DNA of 64,000 bases from Nemertoderma westbladi (taxonomy: Eukaryota; Animalia; Xenacoelomorpha): positions 59,994 to 123,993 of the forward strand of contig JAUCBJ010000306.1 in assembly GCA_032718475.1 (NCBI GenBank). Reading direction: 5' to 3'. Below, piece after piece: positions 1 through 19,392 of the stretch. Within the stretch, counting starts at the first letter, position 1; every line of letters begins with the position of its first letter. A model generated the notes under the pieces. It had not been told where the DNA came from. It was given only the letters and a program-made list of their open reading frames with translations, and ran no database searches. Position numbers and translations under genes: made by a program.

Positions 1-654
1 TTGCATTAGCGGGCAATCAGCTAGATCGCACTATTCGGTACACACAACACGCTAGTAATTTGCTGGCCTAAAGCCAGCTGCAGGCAAGTTTAGACCCAGC
101 GCGGTACTATCCACGTAGAGACAAATACTGTACCATTTTGATATTTAAATATTCTCGCATTCACACATTACGTTAGGGAATCCCCAGTATTCGCGATTAG
201 AAAAGACGTAGGCAATAGCGTGCTTTAATAGTGATAGAATTAGGCGTAAGAATACTCTGAGTGCAAAGCCTCTCGCACTCGTCTTAAGTAAGCTTAGGGA
301 GCCGACTCGGGTTTATTGTTTTGGTTATTCCCGCGTGGCTCATAGATTCGAACAGTAGCTCTCTATTGAGCGATCGGTAGAGAAAGGAACAAGCGATTTT
401 GCAGGAGTTGTGTAAAATTAGTAAAATATATTAGCGGACGGCAGATTAGCGCCATCTAACGGTAAGTAGCGGTTTTGTATTTAGCAACCTTTACCATTTA
501 GCAATATCATGCTCCTGATCCCCTTTACTTAACAGTAGAGCAGTCTTTGTGTCTTATTGGTTAGACGAGAACTTATTAGGTTGGCAGAGAAGTATACGGG
601 TATTTGTCTGTTCAACAGTTCTACTGTTAGTATAGAGGTCGCGGTTGTTTATCA
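1..654 (+). repeat. 5' LTR (3' part only) of BEL element
   Basis: Aligns to 15420-16074 with about 7 substitutions and 1 indel and ends in TATCA. No canonical TGG primer-binding site follows. Confidence 0.9.
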
Positions 655-1030
655 GTGATACCTGTGTTATTGTCTGCTGTAGGCCTACCGCGTACAGTAG
701 GACATAGAGTATTCTTAGGCTGTTGATTTAGATCACTGATACTTCGTATCAGTGATACGTGCATTTGCTGTAGGCTGTAGCGTACAGTAAATAGAGTATT
801 CTTAGGCTGTTAGTTTAGATTACTGTATTCACTGGTCGCGTACAATAGTACAGTAGTACATTAGGCTGATTGCTGTTACTGCGTACGGTAGAAAGGACAT
901 TTGTTTTGCTGTACCACATACAGTATTCTTTAGGCTGTTAGGTTGGTGTACTGTTTTACTTACTGTACTGCATACAGTGGATGTACGGTAGTGCGTTCTG
1001 CTAATTGCGAATACAGCAGTTCCTTAGGCC
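650..1030 (+). repeat. Degenerate ~80-97-bp tandem repeats in BEL leader
   Basis: TATCAGTGATAC at 650 and 747, with recurring blocks CGTACAGTA and AGTATTCTTAGGCTGTT. Confidence 0.65.
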
Positions 1031-1834
1031 TTAGGGCAAATTGTAATTAGTAAGTTTTTTGAAAATTTTAGCTAGGTTTGCGAGAATTCAGTTTCGGTCA
1101 AAATTATTTTGTAAAATTCTAGAGTTTTGTACCGGTATGTTAGGTAACCGCTTAGTTATTTTATACCATCTGGAGATACATGGCAAGACGGGACTTCTGA
1201 GTTTGGGGTTCGTGTGGGTCTGCGGGTTCGGTTTGCAATCAGCGAAAAGCCTGAATCTTTGGACGCGGACGTGGAATCTCACAGCAAACAAGGTTAGTTG
1301 TTCTGTTGGCACCATTGTGTTTGTGGAAGCAGTAAAAAATTATCGGTTGTTTAACTGCGAAGCTGAACTCAATTTATTAGTTAGGATATTTAGGTTTAGC
1401 CGGCCATGGTTTTTTGAATCGCTCAAGTTAGAGAGAGAGTTAGAGAGAGTCGCAACCCGAAGATGTAGCCACGCGCTGGTGGATACATATAATATTTGAA
1501 ATTAAAATTACGTTGATTAGAGCTATATATAAAATTAGAAATATTCGGGTGGCAAGTATATTTTGAATATTTTGTATTAGATTCAAAGTTATTTTGTGCT
1601 ATACCGGTATTTAATACTATATAGTAGCTATATAATAATATTTTGTTTAAATATTGTGCTAGTATTTGCTATAACTATATACCCCATTAAATTCACAATA
1701 TTGCATTGCGAATTTATTTGACATTTGGACCAACTGATTATTAGACAAATAATTTGACCGTATTTTGGTTAAATTATAATTATATCTCGAACTTTGCGAG
1801 ATATTTTTGCCGGAAGGCAAACATTATTTAGACT

Positions 1835-4507
1835 ATGAGTGTCTCAGACAAAGAGGCACTAGAGGACAGCTATGAGACGGCGGCTGGACCGCCGACTGAC
1901 GATAGCGTAAATATTACTGTTGACGACAATGCCGACTATGACAACGCAGCGAGTGACGCTGACGTAAGTGAACAGGAGGACGAGACAGTGACTAGTGAGG
2001 AAGAACAACCACCAGAGATAATAGTATTAGGATCCCCTACCACTACTGTAAGGAAGGACCGCACAGCAGCCCGGACAGAGGTGAGTGATAGGGAGGGTAG
2101 TGTAGCAGAAGCGAGAGCCCGGAGCCCGGTTTCCAGACCTGTGGGTATGGTAAGTGCCGTGGTGCCGACGGCTGTAAGGAGTACCCGTAGTTCCCGAAAT
2201 AATCCTTCAAGTCCACCGAGTGTGAGTCAGGTAAGTGAGAGAGAACTAGACATTGCGATAAAGAAGAAACTTCGCGCGCATGCCGGACATATAACTCGGA
2301 TGACGGACAAGGTAAGGAAGATGTTAGCTGACTCAGCGAACATCGGAAGGGTAGAGTTAGTAGAGATTAGAAGAGGATATAACTCAGCGTTATTCAAGCA
2401 GACGGAGGAGCTTGCAGTCCTAGCGAAGAAGGCAGTAGAGTCTCAGTCGAGCGACGTGGCGACGAGGATTTACGACAGGGTTTTAGCAGCCTTGTTGGAG
2501 CACCGCGAGTTATCGGAGCGATTCCGACGAGTTAGGACGGAGAACTGGCTGCTATGGGCATCACAAACGCAGGCGACTCAGGTGAGTGACGCAGAGTTGA
2601 GAGACTTAGTGGAGCGAGAAGAGATCCAAGATAAAGAGGAGCGCCGTTATCAGAGGGAAGTTACTAGCTGGCTGATGCAGAATGGAGTGGTGGTACCGGG
2701 CCAGGTGCTACCGACGACGGAGAACATTCAACAGAGGACGTTGACTCCACCCGACGACGCATCCAGAGACAGTGGCGATTCCCAGGTTAGTCACGCGCGA
2801 GGGAAGGTTATATGTGCTAGATCCCTTGTTTCTCACAACTCGGCGGAGGAGAGAAGACGCCGACTGGACGAACAACAGCCGGAAGTTTTGCGTGCATCGG
2901 AAGCACGGAAGGAAGCCGAGCGGGAATGGGAGCGCACACGTAAGTTAGACGCAAAGTTGCGAGAGTTGGAAGAGAAAGGTAAGCGCGAGCAAGCGGAACG
3001 CGAACGCAAGGAACGCGAACTCCAGCTCGAACGCGAACGGAAGGAACGCGAACAAAAGGAATACGAACTTCAACTCGAACACGAGCGCAAAGAACGCGAA
3101 CTTGAGATCGAGAAGGAGCGACGGGCGTTGTATGAAGAGAAGGCGCGAGTTGAAGAAGAGAGCGCAGCGAGACGAGCGAGGGAAGAAGAAGAACGTAAAC
3201 TGGCGCAGTTGGAAAGTGCGAGATTAAGTTTAGAGAGCGAAGAACGGACTAGGAAGGCGAATGAAATCGCCGAGAAGGGGATGCAAATGATCGAAGAATG
3301 TGGGGCGAGTGTAGGGACAGAGTTGCGAGAACTGTTCGCACTGCAGAAGGCCGAACAGGAAGCGAGAACTCCGACCATACGCGAGTCGACGACGACTAGA
3401 ATTCCTATACCCGGTCCAGCTATTACGAGTACACGGATCGCTAAACCGTTCTCTACATATCGCACGCCAGTTGGTATTAGTGCTTCACCCATCGCCCAGG
3501 ATCTACGTCATCGGAACACCGCACCACTATACACCGAACGAGCGAACGGAGAATTTAGAGAAGAAACTCCGATGGGCCGAGTATTGGGCGAACCGAACCC
3601 GCGGGTTTGGAATACGCGGACGGAGCGCCGACCCAGTTCGACGGAGAACTTCCGGGTTAAACCGGAAGAGGGATCATATGAGAGACAGCGGATTACTCAG
3701 ATAGAGCCGACTATACAACAGAACAGGAGCCAGGAATTTATTACGAGGGATGAGTTAAGTGCTAGTTTAGCGCAAGCTATATCGCCGCACATCCAACCTA
3801 TAACGGACATGCTTAGCAACCTACGGTTAAAGGAAGCAGCCCAGGTAAGAAGTAATTCTAATCCTAGCAGGCCTGAGTTAGACAAAGTCCAGCCTAGTCA
3901 ACGAGTACGCATATCGGAGGAGACTATACCACATAGACCTCAGGTAAGGACGCCTGTCCCGAATATCCATAATCCCAATTTCGAAAATTCGGCTGAGAAA
4001 TTTATTCAGGATGCTTGGGTCAGGGCCTCAGCGCGCAAACCATCGCGAGCGCTAAGGACTGACACCGAGTCAAGCGATGAAGAGGAAGAAATGAGACGTC
4101 AGAAGTCCCGAAACTATAAGGAAAGAAGGACGGACGCGGAGCAGGTAAGTTGGAACCACCGGGAAAGGACCAGACTTAACAACCCTGCGGAACTAAACCA
4201 TTTGTTAACCCGGAACGACGCAACCCTTAGGGACATAGGTAAGTTTGCTGCTAGGCAAGGACTGCCGACGCAACAACCCCAGAAGTGTATGGGTAACCAT
4301 AAGCACTGGAGGACGTTTAAAACCTATGTCGACGAGCAGCTAACCAACAGCACCTTTACTCCCAACGAGAAGTTCAACTATTTGCTTCAGATGCTCCATC
4401 GAGAACCTAGAGCCATTGCTGATAACTTCGTCGGCAACGAAAGAGCATTCGTTGAATGCATTTCCTTAAAACCTATTTTTTATGCTCTATCTCGTGGTGT
4501 CGGTTAG
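1835..4507 (+). CDS. gag: BEL Gag, C-terminally truncated by an insertion at ~4465
   Basis: Acidic N-terminus, coiled coil, and DUF1759-like motif G.HKHWRTF...EKFNYLLQML. Homology stops abruptly and no Gag zinc knuckles are present. Confidence 0.85.
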   Translation: MSVSDKEALEDSYETAAGPPTDDSVNITVDDNADYDNAASDADVSEQEDETVTSEEEQPPEIIVLGSPTTTVRKDRTAARTEVSDREGSVAEARARSPVSRPVGMVSAVVPTAVRSTRSSRNNPSSPPSVSQVSERELDIAIKKKLRAHAGHITRMTDKVRKMLADSANIGRVELVEIRRGYNSALFKQTEELAVLAKKAVESQSSDVATRIYDRVLAALLEHRELSERFRRVRTENWLLWASQTQATQVSDAELRDLVEREEIQDKEERRYQREVTSWLMQNGVVVPGQVLPTTENIQQRTLTPPDDASRDSGDSQVSHARGKVICARSLVSHNSAEERRRRLDEQQPEVLRASEARKEAEREWERTRKLDAKLRELEEKGKREQAERERKERELQLERERKEREQKEYELQLEHERKERELEIEKERRALYEEKARVEEESAARRAREEEERKLAQLESARLSLESEERTRKANEIAEKGMQMIEECGASVGTELRELFALQKAEQEARTPTIRESTTTRIPIPGPAITSTRIAKPFSTYRTPVGISASPIAQDLRHRNTAPLYTERANGEFREETPMGRVLGEPNPRVWNTRTERRPSSTENFRVKPEEGSYERQRITQIEPTIQQNRSQEFITRDELSASLAQAISPHIQPITDMLSNLRLKEAAQVRSNSNPSRPELDKVQPSQRVRISEETIPHRPQVRTPVPNIHNPNFENSAEKFIQDAWVRASARKPSRALRTDTESSDEEEEMRRQKSRNYKERRTDAEQVSWNHRERTRLNNPAELNHLLTRNDATLRDIGKFAARQGLPTQQPQKCMGNHKHWRTFKTYVDEQLTNSTFTPNEKFNYLLQMLHREPRAIADNFVGNERAFVECISLKPIFYALSRGVG

Positions 4508-4985
4508 AACGCGCGAAAATGAAAATCGATGCCCATTTTTGAAAAAAATCGGAAGTTATTTGACAAAATTATGGCTAATTTTGGGAAGGGCTTTTGTGTT
4601 GGCAATCCAATTGAAATGAAAGGTGTTCTTCGGATAATTTGAATTAATAACGAGTGCCCTACATAACCGCGCAGTGCACTTAATAACGAGTGCACTACAT
4701 AACGGCGCAGTGCACTTAATAACGAGTGCACTTCATAACGGTGCAGTGCACTTTATAACGGCGCAGTGCACTTCATAATAAAGGTGTAGTGCACTTCATA
4801 AAGGTGGTAGTAGTGCACTTCATAACCATTGCGGTGCACTTAATGTTATATGCTGTATTTTATGTTATATGCTATAGTACATGCTATGCTATATGCTATA
4901 CGCTATATGCATTATGCTATTGCTATATGTCATATGCTATATGTTATATGTTATGCTATATGCCATGTTATGCTATATGCTATGG
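4465..4985. repeat. Foreign AT-rich filler: TE-like end, 36-bp AGTGCAC minisatellite and TATGC-type microsatellite
   Basis: Abrupt composition change, repeats TAATAACGAGTGCAC...CATAACGGCGCAGTGCACT and (TATGC/TATGT)n. It occupies the position of the gag-pol junction. Confidence 0.7.
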
Positions 4986-7900
4986 TTACCAACCAGGTTC
5001 GTTGGACGAGGATGGCGAGTCGAGCGCGAGAGAAGTGACCTGCCAAGGTTTCACCGCGGATAGTTCATCGACCAGCGCGCGGACGTATTTATCATCGGCC
5101 ACGTCGGAAATATTTAGCGTGATTCCGGTGAAACTCACTGGCGATAAGGGATCGAAGCGAATATATGTGATGTTGGACACTGCGTCCACATTATCTTATA
5201 TCGACGAGGAAGTGGCGAGAGCCGTTTCTAGCTTCCAGGACGCCGAGGAGATCCAAATAGAGTTGAAGTCTATGCACGGGGTAGGAGACCTCAAGGGACA
5301 CAGAATTTCGGTAGAACTAGATTCCCTACTTCCGAGAGACCAACACACTCGACAAGAACGGAAAGCTTTGCCATTGGACGGATTTAAGTGTCTAGCTATG
5401 AAGGGATTCGGCAGGCAGTTAGGTAAGGTGCCGCCGATGAGTCCCATGGCACAGGAGTATTTTGACAAGCTCAGGATACCCAGACATCAGGTAGGTTATA
5501 GGAATGTTTCTATGTTGATTGGTGCAGAACAGCTGATCGCACACCAGATATGGGAAATGAGACCAGCTGAGCCGCATGTCAATGGACCACATGCCCATAG
5601 GACTATACTAGGTTGGTATACACGAGTACCCATGTCTTATGAGTTTACAAGTGGCGACAAGCCAATAAACAGATACGATGAATTACAGCCTATAACTCAA
5701 CCACCGTTAGTAGAACCACCAGACATAGACGAGTTTAGGAGTACCTGTATTGACCACTATAGTGACTTTAGCGAGTCGGACGAGGAGTTGATTCCCGATA
5801 ATGTTAGGTTGTTGGAACCACTTCATAACGACCGGACAGATAGTGAACCCGAGGACTACTGTTATCAGACCCGTGGGCCTGGTTCAGCGGCCCACGCTAC
5901 CTATCTGAGTAACGTTTTGACTTATACTGACATAGTGGAGGGTCAAGTGGCTAAATATCGAGACCTCGACATTTTCCAATACAGTGAGGAGGAGCTACAG
6001 AAGGAATTGATACGCCAGGACCTCGAGACAGGAGCCAGAACCGTCGAATGGCTGGATAGGGACGCAATGGAACCCGGTGGATATGACCTAGCCATGTCTA
6101 CTGACGAGAAACGGTCGCTGGAGATGATGGAAGATACCATACGTCTGCTACCGACTGGACATTTTGAAGTTGGAATGTTGTGGCGTCGACAACCACCTAA
6201 GTTGGAGAACAACTACAACTTAGCCTTGAAAAGATTAAACGGAGTAAGGGCTCGGTTGTTGAAGAATCCAGACATTAGGGAGAAGTATTGCGCCCAGATC
6301 AACAACTATTTCGCCAAGGGATTTGCTGGGAAGGTAGAGGACCCTGACTTAGTGACAGACCAGACTTATTACCTTCCACACCACTATGTGACTCACCCTG
6401 ACAAGCCAGACAAAGTCCGAGTAGTCAACGACTGCGCAGCAGTCTATAGAGGTATGTCCCTGAATTCAGAGTTGATGGACGGACCCAACCTGAACAATTA
6501 TTTGATTGGAATACTGTTGCGTTTTAGACAGCGGCGATTCGCATTTACTTGTGACATCGAGGCGATGTTCCACCAGGTAAGAGCCTGTAAGGCAGACCAG
6601 GATAGCCTTCGATTTCTCTGGTTTGAGGATGAAGACTTATCCGGCCCAGTGGTTACATACCAGATGTACGTAAGGATATTTGGCGCCCGCGATAGTCCGA
6701 ATGGCACGCTGTTCGTTTTAAAGAAAACGGCAACAGCCCAGATTGGTAAGTATCCAGTAGAGGTAATTGAGTCTATATTGAGAAACTTCTACATGGACGA
6801 CGGATTGGTGTCCAAGGACACGGCGGAACAAGCCATAGAAGTGGCTCACGGCCTGCAGGAGTGCTTGGCTACAGGGGGTTTTCCTCTAACCAAGTTCACT
6901 ACAAACTCGGAGGCCCTATTAGAGTCGTTCCCGGTAAAAGATCGCGGGAGCGGAGACATTGAATTGGGGGTAGAACCAATCCCCATGGCGCGAGTACTGG
7001 GACTCGCTTGGAACCCGAACTCAGATAAGTTCCAGGTAAGAGTTAGATTTGAACCCAGTAGCCCAGACAAAGTTTTGACAAAGAGGATTTGCTTATCGAC
7101 ATTAAGTAGACTATTTGACCCGATGAACTTTATCAGTCCGGTTATATTACAGGCACGAGCGTGCATGAGGAAAATTTGGTTGTCCGACCTAGAGTGGGAC
7201 GAACCAATATCTCCTATACATGCAAAGCAGTGGAGGGAGTGGGAAGCCGAGTTACATCTATTGAAAAACATAGATGTACCCCGCTCCTACTTCCCGAATC
7301 AGCTGGTATTCCCAGCTGATTTAGAGCTGCACCTATTTAGTGACGCAAGTGACACCGGCTTTGGTATGGTAGCCTACCTTCGCCGAGAGGTAAGTCAGGA
7401 CAAATTTGAGACGGCCTTTGTGACTTCTAGATCAAAGACAATGCCGGTCAAATACATGACTGTCCCTCGTGCAGAGTTACAGGCGGCTGTAGTTTCAGTC
7501 GAGGTAAGTAAGCAAATAACTGAGGAGTTAGACACGACATTGACCTTATTCTATTGGACGGACGCATCCTTGGTGTTAGTATACATTGCGACCGACAATA
7601 TTGCACTAAAGACATTTGTGGCCAATAGACGCGCTCAGATCGTCGACTTTTCGACGAAGGAACAGTGGAGACATTGTCCGGGAGTGTTGAACCCGGCCGA
7701 CATAACTTCGAGAGGTGCAATGCCGGCGGAATTCTGTCAGGAAGAGTCGCAAGAGTTTTGGTTGCATGGACCTGATTTTCTAACAAGGACACAGGAACAT
7801 TGGCCAGAGCGACTAAAGATAGTGACCAATCCGATGCCTGAAGATGCAGAAGTTAAGGTGGAGAAAGTCTCTAAGTCGAAGTCTAAAGCCAAACTTAAGT

Positions 7901-8148
7901 CATTGGAGCGGCCTGAAGAGTCATTGGAGCAGCCTGAAGAGTCATTGGAGCGGCCTGGAGACCTGTCAGACCAACAGACTTACGTGACTACTAGGTCAGG
8001 AAGGGTAAGTTACGACATAAAACCACCCTTACAGACTAGACGACAGTCACAGTTAGTAAGTGACGGACAGAAAATGACCGACACAATGGAGCCTTTGGTT
8101 TCCAAACCTGCGGGTTTGGATTCAAAACTTCCATTGGTTTTCCATTAG
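4984..8148 (+). CDS. pol: BEL Pol: aspartic protease, reverse transcriptase, RNase H (N-terminus of the listed ORF is filler-derived)
   Basis: VMLDTAST (protease); CDIEAMFHQV and FYMDD (RT); LFSDAS, VPRAEL, WTDA, NPAD.TSRG (BEL RNase H). Confidence 0.93.
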   Translation, partial: GYQPGSLDEDGESSAREVTCQGFTADSSSTSARTYLSSATSEIFSVIPVKLTGDKGSKRIYVMLDTASTLSYIDEEVARAVSSFQDAEEIQIELKSMHGVGDLKGHRISVELDSLLPRDQHTRQERKALPLDGFKCLAMKGFGRQLGKVPPMSPMAQEYFDKLRIPRHQVGYRNVSMLIGAEQLIAHQIWEMRPAEPHVNGPHAHRTILGWYTRVPMSYEFTSGDKPINRYDELQPITQPPLVEPPDIDEFRSTCIDHYSDFSESDEELIPDNVRLLEPLHNDRTDSEPEDYCYQTRGPGSAAHATYLSNVLTYTDIVEGQVAKYRDLDIFQYSEEELQKELIRQDLETGARTVEWLDRDAMEPGGYDLAMSTDEKRSLEMMEDTIRLLPTGHFEVGMLWRRQPPKLENNYNLALKRLNGVRARLLKNPDIREKYCAQINNYFAKGFAGKVEDPDLVTDQTYYLPHHYVTHPDKPDKVRVVNDCAAVYRGMSLNSELMDGPNLNNYLIGILLRFRQRRFAFTCDIEAMFHQVRACKADQDSLRFLWFEDEDLSGPVVTYQMYVRIFGARDSPNGTLFVLKKTATAQIGKYPVEVIESILRNFYMDDGLVSKDTAEQAIEVAHGLQECLATGGFPLTKFTTNSEALLESFPVKDRGSGDIELGVEPIPMARVLGLAWNPNSDKFQVRVRFEPSSPDKVLTKRICLSTLSRLFDPMNFISPVILQARACMRKIWLSDLEWDEPISPIHAKQWREWEAELHLLKNIDVPRSYFPNQLVFPADLELHLFSDASDTGFGMVAYLRREVSQDKFETAFVTSRSKTMPVKYMTVPRAELQAAVVSVEVSKQITEELDTTLTLFYWTDASLVLVYIATDNIALKTFVANRRAQIVDFSTKEQWRHCPGVLNPADITSRGAMPAEFCQEESQEFWLHGPDFLTRTQEHWPERLKIVTNPMPEDAEVKVEKVSKSKSKAKLKSLERPEESLEQPEESLERPGDLSDQQTYVTTRSGRVSYDIKPPLQTRRQSQLVSDGQKMTDTMEPLVSKPAGLDSKLPLVFH

Positions 8149-8953
8149 ATTTATGGCCAGGAGAGGACTAGTAAAGGCGTTCTACTCCGATAAGGGTACA
8201 AACTTTGTCGGAGGGAATAGCGAGTTGAACGCGGCTCATAAAGCGGCACAGAATAAGGAAATTTCTGCAGCACTTTTGCCGCAAAGAGTAGAATGGAGAT
8301 TCAATACTCCAGAAAGTCCTTGGAGAGGAGGAAGTTGGGAGCGTTTGGTTCGCTCTGTAAAGCAGGCCATTGCTAAAACGTTGCCTGTGAACAAACAACT
8401 TACCGACGACGAATTGGTTACAGCTTTCATTGAAATCGAGCATACCCTAAACTCGAGGCCGATAGCTATGTTGCCAGACGGTGTTGCATTAACGCCGAAT
8501 CATTTGCTAATGCAGAGTCCAGCATTTCTTGTGCAGGCATCAGAACCCGTTAGTGCCGACCTATATAGTCGTAAGAGCTGGAAAGTGACTCAATTTGTGG
8601 CGTACACATTCTGGGAATATTGGCGGGAATACTATCTTCCCACCATATCCACCAGAACAAAGTGGTACAAAACGGTTCGGAGTCTCCAAAGGGGAGATTA
8701 CGTATTGATAACCGAACCGATTGTCAAGAGAAAGTATTGGGAGACGGGAGTGATCTTGCATATACACCCAGACGTGCAAAACATAGTGCGCACAGTCACT
8801 GTGAAAATTAGGTGCAAGTGTCCGCACCCAAAGAAGTGTAAAACTAATGGTTTACACACCTTGGACCGACCGGTCCAAGATATTGTGTTATTAGAGGAGA
8901 CATGTATCGAGACGGGAGATTATAGTTTGTCTCCTGCCTCAAAACAGAATTAG
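8147..8953 (+). pseudogene. BEL integrase C-terminal half (zinc finger and first catalytic Asp deleted)
   Basis: Starts at RFMARRG..YSDKGTNF; contains PWRGGSWERLVRSVK, LNSRP, LTPNHLL and FWEYWREYYLP. Out of frame with pol and lacks the N-terminal HHCC/DYFGP region. Confidence 0.88.
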
Positions 8954-9712
8954 TGTTGGACGCAACTCACTTCGTATGCATTCCTCGTATGCAAATACAA
9001 GGAAATGCATAGGAGCGGGGTTGTGGTGATTTGCGTTGAGTTTTGTCTAGTGGGTATCAAAACAAAAATTTATTTTCAAAAATTTTGGAAAATTTAAAAA
9101 TTTTAAAAAATTAGAAGTGAACCCAAGACAATTCCAGACGCTGTGTATAGACGCGTTTTAGAATTCGTCTATAGATAAACAGTAATTTGAAAAGTCGTGA
9201 AGCCTGGAAAATAGCATTTAGAAACCATGGTGACGGCTATATTACGTAGGAGTGTAAATTGAGTTTAGCAACTTCCACAGATTGGTGCCAACAGTGCAAC
9301 TAAGGTGCTAAAGGTTAGTAGCACCAGAGGCGTACATGGACCCCACTCAGTAGTTTGCAGGATGTGTGATGTTCGATTATCAAACCTGTGGGTTTGGTAT
9401 AGTCGAGTATTGTGGCTATGGTCCTTTCTAACTACTGTAGTTTAGTACGAGTAATGGGAGTAGTTTGGGCATCAAAAAGTGAGTTGGTCACGGCCAGTTT
9501 ATCTCCAAAGTTTTGCGCTATGCATGGGAATAGGTTAGAGGATAGTTAGTTAGGAAGAGACGGGATCTAGAGAGTCGAACCTGAACTGCTGGAAGGCAGG
9601 GGGGGTTCGGGAGGTCTGTCTTTCGGCGACATCTAACTGATTTACCCACAGTGTAATTGGTTACGTAACGGCACTTATTGGGATATATATATATGTATAT
9701 ACGCGAGGCATA

Positions 9713-12700
9713 ATGGAGAAGGATATTAGAGCGCAACCGCGCAGAGGATTTACTGCCAGAGAGGAGGCGGAGCTACCATTCGCGCGACCAGGATGTAAAG
9801 ACTCTAACGTTTACTACCATGGGTGGTCCGTGATGGAGCTAAATGGAAAATATAAACCGACTTATGATAAGGAATTACGGAGGGAAAGAATGAGAGCGTT
9901 GGGGGACCGGATGGAGGTTTTGCGGAAAGAATATCGCACGCGGTATCCTTACGACTTCGCTTTGGACGTATGTGACATTAGTGCAGACCCGGATGAGGAG
10001 ATCGCACGACTGTACCATATGAATATGTATTTACGACACGAAGAACCTCTACCTGCAATCCGAGATCAGTTCGACGGAATGCATCTGTACCGGAGGACTC
10101 GAGGCGAGGATCAGGAGACGCCGAAAGTCTTCAGCGTATACAAGCTCTTCTACAAGTGTGGTGAATGCATGAATAAGCAAGACGTAGCGATTCCCGATCG
10201 ACTAGACGAGCAACATCCAGAACCGATATTAACGCGATGTCCAGCTCACCAGTTCCTTAGATACAACGAGGGAGGTTACCCGATGAGCAACCCGATGATC
10301 AGTATCGACTTCAGCGGAAAGCGACCTCCGAGACCCATTACGCCGACCGTTACGACATTAGATCCGTATACGGAGATTAAACCCTGTTCAACATCCAGTT
10401 TGATAGAGACGGCAGCGGCCATTTCGCTGTATCGAGCCTATAAGGATCTAGAGGCGCGGCGCGAAGCGGCACGGGACTCGGGTACCAAACCCGCGGGTTT
10501 GGAGCTCTCGAGTCCCTGGACTGCGTTTACTTCACCTCACCGAGCGAGAAGCCTCACGCCTGAGCATCAGGACGACATAGACGCGTTGCGGCAGGAGGAA
10601 CGAGCGGCGAAGGCGAAAGAGTTATTTGAGAACAGGATAGCGGAGTATAATAAGACCGCGGATAGACATCAAGAGGAGACGAGGAGAGTGACCAGATTTG
10701 TTCCACAGGTCGTATCTCAACCCCGACCGGTGTATTATTCCGACGGCACCGAACCTGCGATATTAGTAGATCATCCGGAGTCGCGAGAAGCGATACGATT
10801 CTTGCCGATGGTAAGAATGGCGGATCATTGGAACGTTGACTGTCTACGGGAAGTTTTATGCGCGAAGTTCTTGCGTGATGTCCCAATGCAGATCACAGAT
10901 TACGATACATTGGATAAGATTGGAGCTCCGGGGAAGGAGAGCAAACTATTTGGATGGTTGGATAAGTACATCAAGGTATGGGTCGCGGTGGCTACATTCC
11001 CAGACGACGAGGAGGTAGACCAGACGTGGCTGAGGAGGAAGGGTTCTTATACCCGATATGATGACCACAAGGCTATCGAGCGCATGTGGACCCCATCAGA
11101 CGAGATTCAGCGTCAGTGGAGGAAAACGGAGGAATCACTGCAGGATTGGAGGGTGATGTTCTACGACAATGAAGGAGGGTCCCATCAGGAATGTTTGACT
11201 AGCAAGTGCATTCAAATTCGTGCAGCCGATGGTGTGACTCATGTGTTTATGCGTGTGAGGGCGGATCGAGAGAGACCGGAGCCCATCATAACGACACAAT
11301 ATCGGAAGGGGAAGGATCCTAGGGAGCAGATTTTGGAGTTATGCAGGCAAGGAGGTATGCACGGAGCGGAGCGTATCGACGCCAGGATGCTACCCAAGAA
11401 AGTTAGGGAGGCTATTCTCAACCAAGATTACGTCAAGGTGGGATCGGGAGTCCAGAGCGATTTGGAGAGCGACTTCAACGCCATGACTGATCTGGAAGAT
11501 AGATTGCCGAGACCGTTTGTCGACACCAAGCTATTGTTGCTATGGGCACAGGATATTGGAATTTATAGGGAGTATCCCAACTCTGCCAAGACTGGTATGG
11601 GCTTTATAGCACACTTGTTGTATAATTGGGACTTTAAGTTAAAGACGCAGAAGAAGTACGAGGAGGCGTATGGTGAATACAACACGCCACCGGGAGCGGA
11701 GTTCAAATCCCACTTCAAGCGGCAAGCGTTAGTGTATTGGAACATTTGCGCGCCACCCCGTGCGTCGCTACAATATTATTTGGTGCTTGAGTCGAACACG
11801 GTGACTTGTTTATTAGCGGATATCGTTGCGCGAGTTTTGAAGCGTCATCCATTGGTATTCGGAGGAGATCAATACGTTCGCTCGAAAGGGGGAATCCAAT
11901 CCGACGTGATGAAGCGTTTCTTAACCCCGTTCTTCAACCAGTCGTTAGAGAATACGTCGATGGTGAGGAGAGGATTAGCGATATTCCAAGGAGTATATCG
12001 ACAGAACATCGGAGATTTGGGAGACCGACCGTCGATGGAGTATCCGACGCCAGAAGCTTTGGAGAAGTGGTTCGGGAATCAAACCCGCGGGTTTGGTACT
12101 CCCTTCCACTCGGAGGCTGATAGACCTGTTAAGGAGGGCTGGCCGGAGACGTTAGTAGAGGTGTTCGGAGTAGATCTTCCGGTGGAGAAGACATATCCGA
12201 AACGAACGCGGGAGGAAATATTGGAGATAGAGGACAAGGGCGAGGATGTTTACTTTGTTCCGGATCGACAACCGTTGACCGGAGAGGACGACATCGTATT
12301 AGACATTGGGAAGGAAGGAAGTGCGAAACCGATTGGAGACCTCATATACGAGAGGGCCTGGTTTCCAGAAGCGCGTAGGTGCAAATTGTGCGGCAGCACA
12401 AGGCACAATCTAAAGTCGTGCGACGCGGTAGTAGAGGCGGCGCATAAGGTCTGTCGTTGGTGTAATGAGACTGACCATTCGTTTCACACGTGCACCGTCT
12501 TCATTTCTCAATGTGGATATTGTGGGGTAAAGGGACATCGTAGCGCGAGATGTCAGCTGCGAGATGATTCCTTTCAAAACCATAGCGCTAACCTACTTCG
12601 GGAGATGTTAGATAAGTGGGAGAGTGTGGCCGACTACCATATTCAAGCGCAGATGCGTTGGTTACCATTTAAGGCGGGATATGGATTTTGGGCAGTAGAC

Positions 12701-13420
12701 CCATCACATGTTGCGTACGAGCCATATCTACAATCGCTACCACAATATCAGGAACTCATCCTAACTGCTCAAGACCTTCCACAGAACACTGGAGTTATCG
12801 TAGTCCGAGAATACTTCAGACAGTTGAATATGGACAATAAGTACACCTGGAACTTCGTTGCTATTTGCGATCGCATCACGAAGGGTGTATTTACGGAGAC
12901 TAGAAAAGTGGTACGCGCGCGAGGTGATTGGAGGATGGTGGCTATACAATACCGCAACAAATTCTTGTTGACTCATGTGCCAGTGGGTTCATTGACCGCT
13001 GAGAGGATACGGGAACAGAGGATCGCAGCGACCACAGCGACGACCGCTGGAGCTCAAAGCTCGCGGAAGGAACCAGGAGGAGGGGTCCAAGACAAGCGTC
13101 AAGTCAAGGACGACCACCATCACTCTATTATAGAAGCACAGAGGTTGCAGCGCAAGGCGCAGGGAGCGTCGGAAAAGGCGCGAGTGCAACTGCATAAGGA
13201 AGAGTTGGCGGAAGCGACCACAGGAGCACGACAATTGGGACGAGGCCGAGGAAGAAGTACCAGCCGGGAATCTGTCGGGGCTCAGGGAACATCGTCGCCG
13301 GTTCCGGGGAGTGACGCCTCACGGACGCCGTCAACGGAGTCGACTGGAGGACGACTGGTGTATCTGGGAAGAGGGCGAAAGAGAGGAGCGAGCCCAAAGA
13401 ACCCAGGAGCGGGTCGATAA
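9713..13420 (+). CDS. Accessory ORF3: DEDDy 3'-5' exonuclease-like domain, 3 CCHC zinc knuckles, RG-rich tail
   Basis: Intact 1235 aa. ExoI MFYDNEG; LPKKVREAILNQDYVKVGSGVQSDL (ExoII); FVDT; GMGFIAHLL; W..PP...QYYLVLES (ExoIII-like). Knuckles CKLCGSTRHNLKSC, CRWCNETDHSFHTC, CGYCGVKGHRSARC; tail GRGRGR. Confidence 0.8.
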   Translation: MEKDIRAQPRRGFTAREEAELPFARPGCKDSNVYYHGWSVMELNGKYKPTYDKELRRERMRALGDRMEVLRKEYRTRYPYDFALDVCDISADPDEEIARLYHMNMYLRHEEPLPAIRDQFDGMHLYRRTRGEDQETPKVFSVYKLFYKCGECMNKQDVAIPDRLDEQHPEPILTRCPAHQFLRYNEGGYPMSNPMISIDFSGKRPPRPITPTVTTLDPYTEIKPCSTSSLIETAAAISLYRAYKDLEARREAARDSGTKPAGLELSSPWTAFTSPHRARSLTPEHQDDIDALRQEERAAKAKELFENRIAEYNKTADRHQEETRRVTRFVPQVVSQPRPVYYSDGTEPAILVDHPESREAIRFLPMVRMADHWNVDCLREVLCAKFLRDVPMQITDYDTLDKIGAPGKESKLFGWLDKYIKVWVAVATFPDDEEVDQTWLRRKGSYTRYDDHKAIERMWTPSDEIQRQWRKTEESLQDWRVMFYDNEGGSHQECLTSKCIQIRAADGVTHVFMRVRADRERPEPIITTQYRKGKDPREQILELCRQGGMHGAERIDARMLPKKVREAILNQDYVKVGSGVQSDLESDFNAMTDLEDRLPRPFVDTKLLLLWAQDIGIYREYPNSAKTGMGFIAHLLYNWDFKLKTQKKYEEAYGEYNTPPGAEFKSHFKRQALVYWNICAPPRASLQYYLVLESNTVTCLLADIVARVLKRHPLVFGGDQYVRSKGGIQSDVMKRFLTPFFNQSLENTSMVRRGLAIFQGVYRQNIGDLGDRPSMEYPTPEALEKWFGNQTRGFGTPFHSEADRPVKEGWPETLVEVFGVDLPVEKTYPKRTREEILEIEDKGEDVYFVPDRQPLTGEDDIVLDIGKEGSAKPIGDLIYERAWFPEARRCKLCGSTRHNLKSCDAVVEAAHKVCRWCNETDHSFHTCTVFISQCGYCGVKGHRSARCQLRDDSFQNHSANLLREMLDKWESVADYHIQAQMRWLPFKAGYGFWAVDPSHVAYEPYLQSLPQYQELILTAQDLPQNTGVIVVREYFRQLNMDNKYTWNFVAICDRITKGVFTETRKVVRARGDWRMVAIQYRNKFLLTHVPVGSLTAERIREQRIAATTATTAGAQSSRKEPGGGVQDKRQVKDDHHHSIIEAQRLQRKAQGASEKARVQLHKEELAEATTGARQLGRGRGRSTSRESVGAQGTSSPVPGSDASRTPSTESTGGRLVYLGRGRKRGASPKNPGAGR

Positions 13421-13895
13421 TACATTATAGCACAGGGCGACAGACTCTAGATATATACATCATCGTCGCTCTGATGTATATTGTAGCATTTAGAAATCTT
13501 CGACTAGACTCATATACACTAGTTGAGCTGTTTTTGAATTTATATTATGAGAGAGGCGAAGGAAGTGATTGGGGAGACAAACCTGTGGGTTTGGCTTACT
13601 CCTTTCACTTGCCCTAGCAAAATTTTTTATATATTTGATCTTGTATGTAGTAATCATTATGTAGTAAGAACGAGAAACAATATTTTGTAAATTTAATTTG
13701 AATGAGAGAGATAATATTTGTAAATTTAATTTGTATGCAATTCATTATGCAATATCTATAGCAATATTTTGTAAATAGTAGGATTTATAGTATCAAGTAT
13801 TTAGATTAGTTGGAAGAAATTTATTTTGTTTGTATACATCACCTTATACTCTTCTACAGTTGGAGGGAAACATTATATGATTTCCCTTGGAGCGG

Positions 13896-16074
13896 TGTTA
13901 CGGTATATGGCGCTGTATCCACATATATTAGTCCGTTATACTGTACGCAATATTAGTCCGTTATACTGTATGTAATATTAGTCCGTTGTGCAGCATAATA
14001 TTTTAGATAAGGCATAATAGCGCAATGATATTTAGATAGGGAAACCAAAACGCCTATATATTTGAATCCATCCATTTTGTATAATATGTAGCCCTACCTA
14101 CGTAATTTTGTATTAGGATATATGTAGATAGTTCCAGGGTAGCAAGTTTATTCGTACCCTGGATTTCGTGCTTGCTGATATTAGCTTCAATAGGGCTAGC
14201 ATATAGGGACGCTGTCCTGGCCATTCAGCAGCCAGGGACATGATCCATTACCATATATGGTAATAATTTGAGGTTTGGGCAGCAATAGGGCTACAATCCG
14301 GCCTCCTTATTGGACTAACTGCTTCCAGCTTGGTCTAATGCTAGCGCGGACTGGAGAGCCAATAGGAGAGCGATTGAGTCACCCTATTGCATCACCCCAT
14401 CCGGATCACCTATAAAATTGGCGTTTTGCCGGTAGAGCTGTATCTTCTGTACCTGCACTGCTGTTGTACTTGCTGAGCTGTCCCTATTCATTTTTTGACG
14501 GATATTTTAGCGTATTTCTGCAATTTGCTATTTTCGATTAATTTCTCAAAATGCTTTGCTAGTGCGATTATCCTTGATTGTGTTTCTCAATTAATTCCAT
14601 CGATTACTGCTAATTACAACTGGAACTATGATTTCTACCTTTTGTTAATGGTTCTATGTGATTCCTTTCTACGCAATAATCCTAAGGGATTTCTGAGACT
14701 GTCAGACTTTGTGATTTGCATGCGCTGCTACGGTAGCTATTAGCATAATGGAGGGCTAAGGTGCCAGTGGGCGGTGGGCACATCGGGGGGTTGAGCGACT
14801 AAGGGAGAGCGGAGGATTCAAAAGCGAGCAACGCTGGCGGGGGGTCACCGTTGCGGTCGGGTAGTTCACGCTGTGGTATGCAGACCAATCGCCGGTACGG
14901 TAATTAGGGGGCTGATGATCCAGGTTTCGTCTCTATTTAGTATTAGGGGGGCAGGAATCAGGTTAGTTAGGAGTCCTATATGTACCCGGGAGAGGCCTGC
15001 ACGTATCATAACGTGGAGTGTGAAGTACGAATAGTGAGTCGCATAACTGTGGGCTATACAGTAGTTAACTGCATAATTGCGAACTGTGATTGCTGACGCT
15101 GATTGGTGTGTTATTGAAGTGTGCCTACGATTGTGAATGTTTAGGTAGGCCCCCCTTTTCTTTGATTGATTTCTATTTCTTAGTTGCAACAATTAGTTAC
15201 TGATTAGGTCAAAGTAATACGGCAATTTAGGCTATTACTAGCGAAACCTGTTGCGTAATAAATTAGAATTACGTATTCTGGAACTCTTAGTAATTAGTAC
15301 GCTGTTACATATTTGTGACTGTAATTGATTAGTAAAAATTAAGAATTAGTACGCAGCATAGCGGAGAGTAGCTAAGGTAATAATTAGAGTACTGTAAACT
15401 ATTCACGCTGAGCGGTTATTTGCATTAGCGGGCAATCAGCTAGATCGCACTATTCGGTACACACAACACGCTAGTAATTTGCTGGCCTAAAGCCAGCTGC
15501 AGGCAAGTTTAGACCCAGCGCGGTACTATCCACGTAGAGACAAATACTGTACCATTTTGATATTTAAATATTCTCGCATTCACACATTACGTTAGGGAAT
15601 CCCCAGTATTCGCGATTAGAAAAGACGTAGGCAATAGCGTGCTTTAATAGTGATAGAATTAGGCGTAAGAATACTCTGAGTGCAAAGCCTCTCGCACTCG
15701 TCTTAAGTAAGCTTAGGGAGCCGACTCGGGTTTATTGTTTTGGTTATTCCCGCGTGGCTCATAGATTCGAACAGTTAGCTCTCTATTGAGCGATCGGTAG
15801 AGAATGGAACAAGCGATTTTGCAGGAGTTGTGTAAAATTAGTAAAATATATTAGCGGACGGCAGATTAGCGCCATCTAACGGTAAGTAGCGGTTTTGTAT
15901 TTAGCAACCCTTACAATTTAGTAATAGCACGCTCCTGATCCCCTTTACTTAACAGTAGAGCAGTCTTTGTGTCTTATTGGTTAGACGAGAACTTATTAGG
16001 TTGGCAGAGGAGTATACGGGTATTTGTCTGTTCAACAGTTCTACTGTTAGTATAGAGGTCGCGGTTGTTTATCA
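13896..16074 (+). repeat. 3' LTR of BEL element (~2.2 kb; start inferred)
   Basis: Short purine run GGAGCGG then TGTTA at 13896; ends TATCA at 16074. The last 655 bp match the 5' LTR. The start cannot be verified within the window. Confidence 0.65.
14355..14420 (+). promoter_or_regulatory. Putative LTR promoter (CCAAT and TATAAAA)
   Basis: GCCAAT near 14358 and TATAAAA at 14411 inside the inferred LTR; AATAAA near 15257. Confidence 0.4.
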
Positions 16075-19000
16075 GTCCGTCCAGTCCTATATTTACTTAC
16101 ATTCATCGAATGGGGTCCGTCCAGTCCTAATTTACTTACATTCATCGAATGGGGTCCGTCCAGTCCTATATTTACTGACATTCATCGAATGGGGTCCGTC
16201 CAGTCCTAATTTACTTACATCCATCGAATGGGGTCCGTCCAGTCCTAATTTACTTACATTCATCGAATGGGGTCCGTCCAGTCCTAATTTACTTACATTC
16301 ATCGAATGGGGTCCGTCCAGTCCTAATTTACTTACATTCATCGAATGGGGTCCGTCCAGTCCTAATTTACTTACATTCATCGAATGGGGTCCGTCCAGTC
16401 CTATATTTACTGACATTCATCGAATGGGGTCCGTCCAGTCCTAATTTACTTACATTCATCTAATGGGGTCCGTCCAGTCCTAATTTACTTACATTCATCG
16501 AATGGGGTCCGCCCAGTCCTTCATTTACTTACATTCATCGAATGGGGTCCGTCCAGTCCTAATTTACTGACATTCATCGAATGGGGTCCGTCCAGTCCTA
16601 TATTTACTTACATTCGTCGAATGGGGTCCGTCCAGTCCTAATTTACTGACATTCATCGAATGGGGTCCGTCCAGTCCTAATTTACTTACATTCATCGAAT
16701 GGGGTCCGTCCAGTCCTATATTTACTGACATTCATCGAATGGGGTCCGTCCAGTCCTAATTTACTGACATTCATCGAATGGGGTCCGTCCAGTCCTATAT
16801 TTACTTACATTCATCGAATGGGGTCCGTCCAGTCCTTCATTTACTTACATTCATCGAATGGGGTCCGTCCAGTCCTAATTTACTTACATTCATCGAATGG
16901 GGTCCGTCCAGTCCTAATTTACTGACATTCATCGAATGGGGTCCGTCCAGTCCTAATTTACTTACATTCATCAAATGGGGTCCGTCCAGTCCTAATTTAC
17001 TTACATTCATCGAATGGGGTCCGTCCAGTCATATATTTACTGACATTCATCGAATGGGGTTCGTCCAGTCCTAATTTACTTACATTCATCGAATGGGGTC
17101 CGCCCAGTCCTAATTTACTTACATTCATCGAATGGGGTCCGTCCAGTCCTAATTTACTTACATTCATCGAATGGGGTCCGTCCAGTCCTAATTTACTTAC
17201 ATTCATCGAATGGGGTCCGTCCAGTCCTAATTTACTTACATTCATCGAATGGGGTCCGTCCAGTCCTAATTTACTTACATTCATCGAATGGGGTCCGTCC
17301 AGTCCTAATTTACTTACATTCATCGAATGGGGTCCGTCCAGTCCTATATTTACTGACATTCATCGAATGGGGTCCGTCCAGTCCTAATTTACTTACATTC
17401 ATCGAATGGGGTCCGTCCAGTCCTATATTTACTGACATTCATCGAATGGGGTCCGTCCAGTCCTAATTTACTTACATTCATCGAATGGGGTCCGTCCAGT
17501 CCTATATTTACTGACATTCATCGAATGGGGTCCGTCCAGTCCTAATTTACTTACATTCATCGAATGGGGTCCATCCAGTCCTAATTTACTTACATTCATC
17601 GAATGGGGTCCGTCCAGTTCTAATTTACTTACATTCATCGAATGGTGTCCGTCCAGTCCTAATTTACTTACATTCATCGAATGGGGTCCGTCCAGTCCTA
17701 ATTTACTTACATTCATCGAATGGGGTCCGTCCAGTCCTATATTTACTGACATTCATCGAATGGGGTCCGTCCAGTCCTAATTTACTTACATTCATCGAAT
17801 GGGGTCCGCCCAGTCCTATATTTACTGACATTCATCGAATGGGGTCCGTCCAGTCCTAATTTACTTACATTCATCGAATGGGGTCCGTCCAGTCCTAATT
17901 TACTTACATTCATCGAATGGGGTCCGTCCAGTCCTAATTTACTTACATTCATCGAATGGGGTCCGTCCAGTCAGTCCTATATTTACTTACATTCATCGAA
18001 TGGGGTCCGTCCAGTCCTTCATTTACTTACATTCATCGAATGGGTTCCGTCCAGTCCTTCATTTACTTACATTCATCGAATGGGGTCCGTCCAGTCCTTC
18101 ATTTACTTACATTCATCGAATGGGGTCCGTCCAGTCCTTCATTTACTTACATTCATCGAATGGGGTCCGTCCAGTCCTTCATTTACTTACATTCATCGAA
18201 TGGGGTCCGTCCAGTCCTTCATTTACTTACATTCATCGAATGGGGTCCGTCCAGTCCTTCATTTACTTACATTCATCGAATGGGGTCCGTCCAGTCCTAA
18301 TTTACTTACATTCATCGAATGGGGTCCGTCCAGTCCTATATTTACTGACATTCATCGAATGGGGTCCGTCCAGTCCTATATTTACTTACATTCATCGAAT
18401 GGGGTCCGTCCAGTCCTTCATTTACTTACATTCATCGAATGGGTTCCGTCCAGTCCTTCATTTACTTACATTCATCGAATGGGGTCCGTCCAGTCCTTCA
18501 TTTACTTACATTCATCGAATGGGGTCCGTCCAGTCCTTCATTTACTTACATTCATCGAATGGGGTCCGTCCAGTCCTTCATTTACTTACATTCATCGAAT
18601 GGGGTCCGTCCAGTCCTTCATTTACTTACATTCATCGAATGGGGTCCGTCCAGTCCTTCATTTACTTACATTCATCGAATGGGGTCCGTCCAGTCCTATA
18701 TTTACTGACATTCATCGAATGGGGTCCGTCCAGTCCTAATTTACTTACATTCATCGAATGGGGTCCGTCCAGTCCTATATTTACTTACATTCATCGAATG
18801 GGGTCCGTCCAGTCCTAATTTACTTACATTCATCGAATGGGGTCCGTCCAGTCCTAATTTACTTACATTCATCGAATGGGGTCCGTCCAGTCCTAATTTA
18901 CTTACATTCATCGAATGGGGTCCGTCCAGTCCTATATTTACTGACATTCATCGAATGGGGTCCGTCCAGTCCTATATTTACTTACATTCATCGAATGGGG

Positions 19001-19392
19001 TCCGTCCAGTCCTATATTTACTTACATTCATCGAATGGGGTCCGTCCAGTCCTAATTTACTTACATTCATCGAATGGGGTCCGTCCAGTCCTAATTTACT
19101 TACATTCATCGAATGGGGTCCGTCCAGTCCTAATTTACTTACATTCATCGAATGGGGTCCGTCCAGTCCTTCATTTACTTACATTCATCGAATGGGGTCC
19201 GTCCAGTCCTATATTTACTTACATTCATCGAATGGGGTCCGTCCAGTCCTAATTTACTTACATTCGTCGAATGGGGTCCGTCCAGTCCTAATTTACTTAC
19301 ATTCATCGAATGGGGTCCGTCCAGTCCTATATTTACTTACATTCATCGAATGGGGTCCGTCCAGTCCTTCATTTACTTACATTCATCGAATG
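16075..19392. repeat. 39/40-bp tandem array (~84 copies) made of an exon 3' end plus GTAAGT donor
   Basis: Minus-strand unit AGGACTGGACGGACCCCATTCGATGAAT|GTAAGTAAAT matches the end of exon 19381-19493. Confidence 0.95.

What the first reader, a model, noticed from the sequence alone, without database searches (positions are those of the whole stretch)
9713..13420. BEL retrotransposon carries an intact DEDDy exonuclease / zinc-knuckle / RG-tail accessory gene where env would sit
Seen: a 1235-aa intact ORF between integrase and the 3' LTR. It has DxE (YDNE, ~11165), KVGSGVQSD (~11435-11460), FVDT, an ExoIII-like QYYLVLE (Glu at the last acidic position), three CX2CX4HX4C knuckles (12380-12555) and GRGRGR motifs. 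It shows no signal peptide or transmembrane segment, so it is not an Env. Known: this motif series defines WRN/EXD2/EXD1/Mut-7(Nibbler) DEDDy domains; Mut-7/Nibbler and EXD1 act in small-RNA and piRNA pathways, and RG repeats are Tudor-binding methylation sites. Inference: a captured RNA-binding nuclease acting as an anti-silencing factor or in RNA/cDNA processing. It is intact while gag and integrase of this copy are broken.
Basis: partly seen in the sequence, partly recalled or inferred. Interest (0 to 1): 0.9.

Follow-up and report, generated by a model that had tools for sequence, protein, structure and literature searches.

The report
Retrotransposon nuclease gene with repeated hairpins
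A BEL/Pao jumping gene carries, where an envelope gene would sit, a gene conserved across its copies for a likely RNA-trimming enzyme joined to three zinc knuckles, and the element repeats one hairpin-forming motif eight times, which this protein may bind to manage the element's own RNA.

Summary
The ORF is real: 1235 aa, intact, between a BEL/Pao integrase remnant and the 3' LTR, with the named motifs and no membrane segment. It is a family gene, not a nested insert. Public runs cover it along with gag/pol, and changes segregating among copies are 30 synonymous to 1 non-synonymous. One remote homologue shares the exonuclease motifs, the final Glu and three knuckles. A DEDDy fold is supported by profile scores but not shown structurally: both folds failed. 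Activity, expression and the Tudor/RG idea are untested. New here: eight copies of an 18-nt stem-loop motif with a YGYG loop, spaced 1.1-2.3 kb along the element, in three reading frames, with self-pairing flanks. Gag-pol is also rich in splice-donor words, and a candidate acceptor precedes ORF3. Best guess (0.4): a spliced accessory protein that recognises the element's own RNA; Gag is the rival binder. DEDDy ORF3s are published for rotifer gypsy-like elements, and this scan noted exonuclease cargo in Gypsy elements of other genomes. My searches found none for BEL/Pao or with such hairpins. New variant of a known kind.

The parts
1..656 (+). Part of the 5' LTR (begins before the window; its 3' end was not located)
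   Evidence: 98.8% identical to 15420-16076
1835..4507 (+). gag, truncated at the start of the capsid-type DUF1759 domain; no Cys-His box left; rich in splice-donor consensus words
   Evidence: (PF03564 E 0.0035, below cut-off)
4637..4983 (.). Short tandem repeats between gag and pol in this copy
   Evidence: (D2, D4, D8)
4984..8148 (+). pol: protease (DTAS), RT (YMDD), RNase H (FSDAS); ends before the integrase zinc finger
8078..8953 (+). C-terminal part of integrase plus DUF5641, in a different frame from pol
9633..9651 (+). Candidate branch point and 3' splice site about 60 nt before the ORF3 ATG (inferred; no RNA data)
   Evidence: one of 2 such sites in 8954-9712
9713..13420 (+). ORF3, 1235 aa, intact accessory gene in the env position
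10157..10249 (+). CxxC...CxxH motif (aa 149-179) in the unassigned N-terminal third of ORF3; possible zinc site (inferred)
   Evidence: no Pfam match for aa 1-446
11120..11830 (+). Likely DEDDy-type 3'-5' exonuclease domain; putative site D485, E487, D583, Y689, E693 (last acid Glu instead of Asp)
12380..12553 (+). Three CCHC zinc knuckles
   Evidence: shared with P0001
13052..13417 (+). Basic low-complexity tail with 4 RG dipeptides
2133..2150 (+). Hairpin motif 1 (in gag)
3593..3610 (+). Hairpin motif 2 (in gag)
5865..5882 (+). Hairpin motif 3 (in pol; most divergent)
8102..8119 (+). Hairpin motif 4 (end of pol frame)
9380..9397 (+). Hairpin motif 5 (between integrase and ORF3)
10485..10502 (+). 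Hairpin motif 6 (in ORF3)
12079..12096 (+). Hairpin motif 7 (in ORF3)
13577..13594 (+). Hairpin motif 8 (3' of the ORF3 stop)
15420..16076 (+). Part of the 3' LTR, cut off at 16076 by a tandem array; its start lies upstream and was not located (TATA-like word at 14411)

Best explanation
ORF3 is a conserved accessory gene of a BEL/Pao retrotransposon family that likely encodes a DEDDy-type exonuclease domain joined to three zinc knuckles, and that protein would recognise the element's own RNA through the eight repeated stem-loops. Shown: the gene, its position, its presence in other copies, purifying selection, the knuckles, the eight motifs. Inferred: the DEDDy fold (about 0.85), an active site (about 0.5; the last acid is Glu), expression from a spliced RNA like env, and folding of the motifs in the sense RNA (about 0.7). 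Guessed: the knuckles bind the G-N-G loop and the exonuclease domain grips or trims the RNA, so that full-length RNA escapes splicing, decay or small-RNA processing in a family-specific way (about 0.4).
For: Selection: 30 synonymous to 1 non-synonymous among 31 segregating places, against a neutral synonymous share of 0.34 (P 1.5e-13); none of the 40 listed places changes a putative site residue or knuckle ligand. Family gene: runs X1, X3, X6 cover ORF3 and gag/pol, with pieces crossing into the ORF3 start and out of its end. Fold: 24 of the 30 nearest Atlas clusters carry PF01612. Against a pooled profile of 40 bacterial PF01612 proteins, P0001 scores 13.0 bits and ORF3 3.9 bits, each above all 500 shuffles; HHalign gives 82% for P0001 and 66% for the pair. 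P0001 has the same order DxE, KVG-x5-D, DT, Y-x3-E and three knuckles. Hairpins: 7 places found where 0.07 matches are expected, 8 with the divergent one and no others in 64 kb. They lie in three reading frames, and their flanks pair with their own partner (85 of 40320 permutations). All 16 loop Gs are invariant while 8 of 16 pyrimidines are T, and there are 4 G-U type pairs on the sense strand. RNA loops with GNG are high-affinity sites for tandem CCHC knuckles (PMC3089453, passages). A DEDDy domain can bind 40-65 nt stem-loops without needing catalysis (Egalitarian; 10.1101/2025.08.03.668247, passages).
Against: No Pfam or PDB match for the ORF3 exonuclease region (one unrelated NCBIfam row at E 0.17). 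Both structure predictions had pLDDT 32-33. The Atlas hit shares 156 features, under the 170 typical of true family members. Automatic aligners did not place YDNE on ExoI, so D485/E487 rest on the motif alone. ORF3 scored at chance against 2 of the 4 single-group profiles. Covariation among the eight apices is not significant (54-86 of 500 shuffles reach it). Three of 8 flanks do not prefer their own partner, and the antisense strand pairs nearly as well. Nothing links ORF3 rather than Gag or a host protein to the hairpins. Three hairpins would also lie on a spliced ORF3 RNA.
Confidence: 0.4

Rival explanations
1. The hairpins are dispersed packaging or assembly signals for the Gag nucleocapsid, and ORF3 is a separate enzyme that trims RNA or cDNA ends inside the particle.
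For: BEL/Pao Gag carries a triple Cys-His box (PMC554778, passages), and GNG loops are nucleocapsid sites. 3'-end processing is the role proposed for rotifer DEDDy ORF3s (PMC5408684).
Against: The motifs are spread evenly, including over the part that a spliced RNA would keep, so they would not single out genomic RNA. ORF3 brings its own three knuckles, conserved in P0001.
Confidence: 0.3
2. ORF3 is a general suppressor or mimic in the small-RNA pathway (Mut-7/Nibbler/EXD1-like), trimming or sequestering piRNAs and using its RG tail to meet Tudor proteins; the hairpins are unrelated to it.
For: DEDDy proteins act in piRNA pathways (PMC5408684 discussion); the tail has GRGRGR.
Against: Only 4 RG dipeptides lie in the tail, and P0001 has no C-terminal RG tail. 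Known TE anti-silencing factors are narrow or family-specific (PMC6719617, passages). No kinship to those host proteins was tested.
Confidence: 0.13
3. The repeated motif is a double-stranded DNA palindrome bound by a dimeric protein (ORF3 or a host factor), as VANC proteins use short motifs in VANDAL transposons.
For: The apex is a near-perfect palindrome and matches on both strands at 4 places. Covariation is not significant. The VANC precedent exists.
Against: Variation in the centre is one-sided (C/T only on the sense strand), stem variants mostly keep G-U pairing on the sense strand, and unrelated flanks pair with each other. None of this is needed for a duplex DNA site.
Confidence: 0.12
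4. ORF3 is a neutral passenger or a separate nested insertion.
For: No homologue could be shown next to BEL pol in another species. Summed contig depth over ORF3 is about half that over gag/pol (the tool warns against ranking by depth).
Against: Strong purifying selection; no indels among common variants; pieces only about 82-86% alike still cover ORF3, most without gaps; the same hairpin motif in gag, pol and ORF3; no terminal repeats around ORF3 among the repeats listed.
Confidence: 0.03

Closest known systems
DEDDy-exonuclease ORF3 of bdelloid rotifer Juno and Vesta LTR retrotransposons (PMC5408684; parts 1-3 of 5 read)
   Same: Non-env ORF3 downstream of pol with RNase D/WRN/mut-7-like motifs, no TM segment, one Asp-to-Glu change in the tetrad, function untested
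   Different: Those are gypsy-like elements with a DEED tetrad; here a BEL/Pao element with D-E-D-E(y), 1235 aa, three CCHC knuckles and dispersed hairpins. The parts read report no knuckles in ORF3 and no such hairpins. No sequence comparison was possible.
Egalitarian (Drosophila DEDDy-domain RNA adaptor; bioRxiv 10.1101/2025.08.03.668247, passages)
   Same: A DEDDy domain that recognises 40-65 nt stem-loops, among them the I-factor retrotransposon signal, independently of catalysis
   Different: A host gene linked to dynein; no knuckles named in the passages read; homology to ORF3 not tested. An analogy of mechanism only.
VANC/VANDAL sequence-specific anti-silencing (PMC6719617, passages)
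   Same: Transposon-encoded accessory protein plus a short motif repeated within the cognate element
   Different: Plant DNA transposon, tandem DNA motif, DNA demethylation; here a retroelement with dispersed, probably RNA-level stem-loops, and the pairing of protein and motif is a guess.
Belpaoviridae / BEL-Pao elements with env-like ORFs (PMC8742986, whole text; PMC9094657, passages)
   Same: Pol order PR-RT-RH-IN, LTRs, a third gene after integrase
   Different: Third gene is not a glycoprotein; the element exceeds 16 kb against the 4-10 kb given for the family.
Dada DNA transposons with a DEDDy domain (PMC3706591, passages)
   Same: DEDDy exonuclease captured by a transposon
   Different: Inserted within a DDE transposase, all four DEDD residues kept

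Membership tests
BEL/Pao (Belpaoviridae) LTR retrotransposon | Pao-type pol with order PR-RT-RH-IN | tested here: met
   PF05380 E 2.7e-39, DUF5641 E 4.7e-18, DTAS/YMDD/FSDAS in order
BEL/Pao (Belpaoviridae) LTR retrotransposon | Flanking LTRs | tested here: met
   657-nt direct repeat at 98.8%; ends, PBS, PPT and target-site duplication not located
BEL/Pao (Belpaoviridae) LTR retrotransposon | Triple Cys-His box in Gag | tested here: inconclusive
   Gag of this copy is cut before that region
BEL/Pao (Belpaoviridae) LTR retrotransposon | RT phylogeny within Semotivirus | not tested
   No related RT sequences were obtained
DEDDy 3'-5' exonucleases (PF01612 group) | Sequence homology to the family | tested here: met
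   Weak and partly transitive, centred on ExoII; below Pfam's cut-off
DEDDy 3'-5' exonucleases (PF01612 group) | DnaQ/RNase H-like fold | tested here: inconclusive
   Models at pLDDT 32-33; Foldseek best E 2.5
DEDDy 3'-5' exonucleases (PF01612 group) | Four acids D-E-D-D plus Tyr in ExoIII | tested here: inconclusive
   D485, E487, D583, Y689 present; fourth acid is E693, also Glu in P0001; ExoI register rests on the motif
DEDDy 3'-5' exonucleases (PF01612 group) | Metal-dependent 3'-5' exonuclease activity | not testable with these tools
   Needs an assay
Mut-7/Nibbler/EXD1 piRNA-pathway proteins | Orthology or closest kinship to these host genes | not tested
   No eukaryotic family sequences were available for a tree
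Env-like ORF3 | Signal peptide and transmembrane anchor | tested here: not met
   Hydropathy scan
Known structured RNA families | Match to an Rfam model | tested here: not met
   0 matches at E up to 1 in 1-16100

The most novel reading that the evidence does not exclude
A retrotransposon-encoded self-recognition system at the RNA level: a spliced accessory protein with knuckles and a DEDDy domain binds eight G-N-G stem-loops written through gag, pol and its own gene, and so licenses the full-length, donor-rich genomic RNA to escape splicing or small-RNA silencing. This would be a Rev-like or VANC-like circuit in an animal BEL/Pao element.
Probability: 0.3. Interest if true: 0.88.

Novelty: new variant of a known kind. 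Interest (0 to 1): 0.66.

Why it matters
Exonuclease cargo in the env slot has been described in rotifer elements with no known function or target. Here the gene shows strong purifying selection and comes with a concrete candidate target: a short hairpin repeated eight times through coding sequence in three frames. That makes an open question testable with a small protein domain and short RNAs: do animal retrotransposons encode sequence-specific factors that protect their own RNA? It also extends such cargo to the BEL/Pao superfamily, as far as my searches reach.

Tried and rejected
Homologue searches: none for ORF3 among 7993 and 1193 scored candidates; only P0001 among 7989 with alignment A1; 1 hit in 1.84 billion representatives. 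P0001 is a singleton cluster on one 9449-nt contig, and its context was not seen. Related-locus scans found no confirmed relative in viral contigs or metagenomes. The hairpin pattern gave 117 metagenome loci (scan stopped at 20 of 64 parts) and 32 viral loci; 0 of 149 matched the element's proteins or DNA. Structure prediction failed alone and with two sequences (alignment A3 also misplaces ExoI), so the fold search is uninformative. A phage tblastn hit to P0001 (E 6) spans unrelated frames and was dropped; the plasmid search gave one hit at E 6. A3 against 201 bacterial genomes gave 7 matches, none better than E 0.11. Weak PDB rows (rotavirus VP4, E 0.06-1.1) were treated as chance. No RNA holder was listed; X4 is only guessed to be RNA. 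An Atlas search with P0001 was not obtained. No tRNA genes lie in the window, and PBS/PPT were not identified. No whole genome is held, so full-length copies could not be compared. Group names inside one search were mislabelled (the group called 'wrnlike' is mostly short RNase D-like; the KVG-type proteins are L122-L126); one search regrouped them.
Full report
Observation. It has no hydrophobic segment (best 19-residue mean 1.34). It lies after a BEL/Pao pol (PF05380 E 2.7e-39; DUF5641 E 4.7e-18) and before a repeat of the window's first 656 bases at 15420-16076 (98.8%), which a tandem array cuts off. The element is thus over 16 kb, longer than the 4-10 kb given for the family (PMC8742986, whole text). 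LTR ends, PBS and PPT were not located. Gag stops just inside DUF1759 and has no Cys-His box; pol stops before the integrase zinc finger, and the rest of integrase is in another frame. The LTR parts differ at 8 of 657 places, so the copy is young.

Is ORF3 part of the family? No genome is held, so I laid public runs on the element. Three runs guessed to be DNA, of organism A and from 3 studies, have depth in 30, 30 and 28 of 30 bins, ORF3 included. Single pieces cross from integrase into the spacer, from the spacer into the ORF3 start, and from the ORF3 end into the 3' region (table 8). Pieces only about 82-86% alike also cover ORF3, most without gaps. No piece spans pol to ORF3 in one contig.

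Selection. On 10440-12580, runs X1 and X3 show 45 places differing in at least 20% of depth; 40 were printed, and no indels. I split the 40 at 97% of summed depth, a threshold I chose after seeing the table. Of 31 places segregating among copies, 30 are synonymous and 1 is not, against a neutral share of 0.34 for transitions (P 1.5e-13). Of 9 places private to this copy, 4 are synonymous and 5 are not (Fisher p 0.001). None alters a putative site residue or knuckle ligand. These are unphased contigs, so this is a count of sites and not a formal dN/dS. The gene is maintained in the active lineage, while this copy drifts.

What is the protein? ORF3 alone matches nothing significant in Pfam, NCBIfam, PHROGs or PDB sequences. 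One homologue exists among 1.84 billion representatives: P0001, 648 aa, 27% over ORF3 559-722, E 6e-6. It repeats the whole order: DxE, KVG-x5-D, DT, Y-x3-E, then three knuckles and an aromatic stretch. Its genomic context is unknown. For ORF3 400-760, 24 of the 30 nearest Atlas clusters carry PF01612, at score 0.91 and 156 shared features, which the tool rates as distant or chance.

Own profile test. I took 40 of the 88 PF01612 matches found in 41 bacterial genomes. Against the pooled profile, P0001 scores 13.0 bits and ORF3 3.9 bits, each above all 500 shuffles, at ExoII and the DT motif. HHalign gives probability 82% for P0001, 66% for the pair (score 37.7, shuffled maximum 18.3 of 60) and 8% for ORF3 alone (25.2 against 22.2). 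Against single groups the results were mixed. P0001 beat all shuffles in 3 of 4 groups. ORF3 was reached by 3 and 15 of 500 shuffles in two groups and was at chance in the other two. Aligners put P0001's DxE on ExoI but not ORF3's YDNE, so that register is inferred from the motif. Structure prediction failed twice, and Foldseek was uninformative. I put a DEDDy fold at about 0.85. The tetrad would be D-E-D-E with Tyr; Glu in both proteins suggests a kept variant, active or not. The knuckles' best PDB matches are retroviral nucleocapsids (E 0.0015). Residues 1-446 and 950-1113 remain unassigned. The RG tail is thin (4 RG) and not shared by P0001.

The unreported feature. The repeat finder flagged a dispersed motif. 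An 18-nt near-palindrome, a 7-bp stem around a YGYG loop, occurs at 2133, 3593, 5865, 8102, 9380, 10485, 12079 and 13577, spaced 1105-2272 nt. A 16-nt pattern drawn from it gives 11 matches at 7 places where shuffles give 0.07 (the pattern is post hoc). A model built from the eight finds no other place in 64 kb better than E 0.48. The six copies in coding sequence sit in all three codon phases, and synonymous shuffles never reach the observed count (0 of 300 per ORF), so the constraint is on nucleic acid.

Evidence that the motif folds. The 22-nt flanks, which share little sequence, pair with their own partner better than with others (85 of 40320 permutations; own partner first in 5 of 8). Six of 8 sense-strand 58-mers fold with the YGYG loop, against 5 of 8 on the antisense strand. 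All 16 loop Gs are invariant while 8 of 16 pyrimidines are T, and 4 stem variants are G-U type on the sense strand. At the place where hairpin 3 is mispaired in this copy (5878), other copies read a letter that pairs. Against this: covariation is not significant and the antisense flanks pair almost as well. Rfam has no match.

Splicing signals. Gag has 5 AG|GTRAGT words against 0.76 expected (0 of 300 synonymous shuffles) and none on the antisense strand. Pol has 4 GGTRAGT against 0.96 (1 of 300). ORF3 has none, nor has the gypsy element at 53417-57874 (3 patterns were tried on 5 ORFs). A branch-point-plus-CAG site ends at 9651, about 60 nt before the ATG. This fits env-like expression from a spliced RNA, but no RNA run was available to test it.

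Mechanism. RNA loops with GNG are high-affinity sites for tandem CCHC knuckles (PMC3089453, passages), and a DEDDy domain can bind 40-65 nt stem-loops without catalysis (Egalitarian preprint, passages). I therefore favour (0.4) an accessory protein that recognises the element's own RNA through the hairpins and protects, exports or trims it. The main rival (0.3) is that Gag binds the hairpins and ORF3 is an end-trimming enzyme. A general piRNA suppressor (0.13), a DNA-level site (0.12) and a neutral passenger (0.03) follow. No step linking protein to hairpin is shown.

What is known. DEDDy ORF3s are described in rotifer gypsy-like Juno and Vesta elements, with a DEED tetrad and no function shown (PMC5408684, parts 1-3 of 5 read; echoed in passages of PMC6338049, PMC6431247 and PMC5718144). 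The BEL/Pao survey PMC3118150 has no occurrence of 'exonuclease' in its main text (passages). Paper searches (listings) and passages of PMC9094657 and PMC11662393 showed no BEL/Pao exonuclease gene and no dispersed hairpins of this kind. I have an uncertain recollection of an extra domain beside env in nematode Cer elements in papers of 1999-2001; I saw none of these papers, and neither Repbase nor any supplement was read. Earlier notes of this scan report exonuclease cargo in Gypsy elements of other genomes (unchecked), none for BEL/Pao words or this sequence, and no matching hairpin case.

Verdict. A real, selected accessory gene of a known kind in a new host superfamily and with a new architecture, accompanied by an unexplained, well-supported repeated hairpin motif. 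Interest 0.66.

Noticed in passing
window 9859-10187: Three runs hold a variant that lacks 329 nt here with 2 other letters in place, a net in-frame loss of 109 codons (aa 49-159) that removes half of the CxxC...CxxH motif.
   Followed up: partly
window 1294-1320 and 9277-9303: 27-nt inverted repeat (85% complementary) linking the leader with the spacer before ORF3; possible long-range pairing.
   Followed up: no
window 9667-13425 versus 1612-9666: Summed contig depth over ORF3 is about half that over gag/pol in X1 and X3; it may mean ORF3-less or more divergent copies, but the tool warns that depth cannot rank genes.
   Followed up: no
window 1832-8953: Excess of consensus 5' splice-site words on the sense strand of gag and pol, none in ORF3; one abuts hairpin 1 at 2150.
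   Followed up: partly
window 16077-52500: Several large tandem arrays: an imperfect unit at about 16077-19400, a 35-nt unit from about 19750, a short palindrome-rich unit near 26000-27600, and an AT-rich array giving a 7924-codon stop-free frame at 28713-52487 (-), most likely a repeat artefact.
   Followed up: no
window 53417-57874 (-): Intact-looking single gag-pol ORF (1485 aa) of a gypsy-type element, GC about 62%; used only as a control for splice words.
   Followed up: no
window 60297-61004 (+): Cys-rich 235-codon frame with hydrophobic N- and C-terminal stretches, perhaps a host surface protein (judged by eye).
   Followed up: no
window 650-960: Degenerate 87-128 nt repeats in the LTR/leader, with length variants among copies.
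   Followed up: no
L183:217-335: Unrelated metagenome contig with four tandem copies of the hairpin pattern at 34-nt spacing; no similarity to the element.
   Followed up: no
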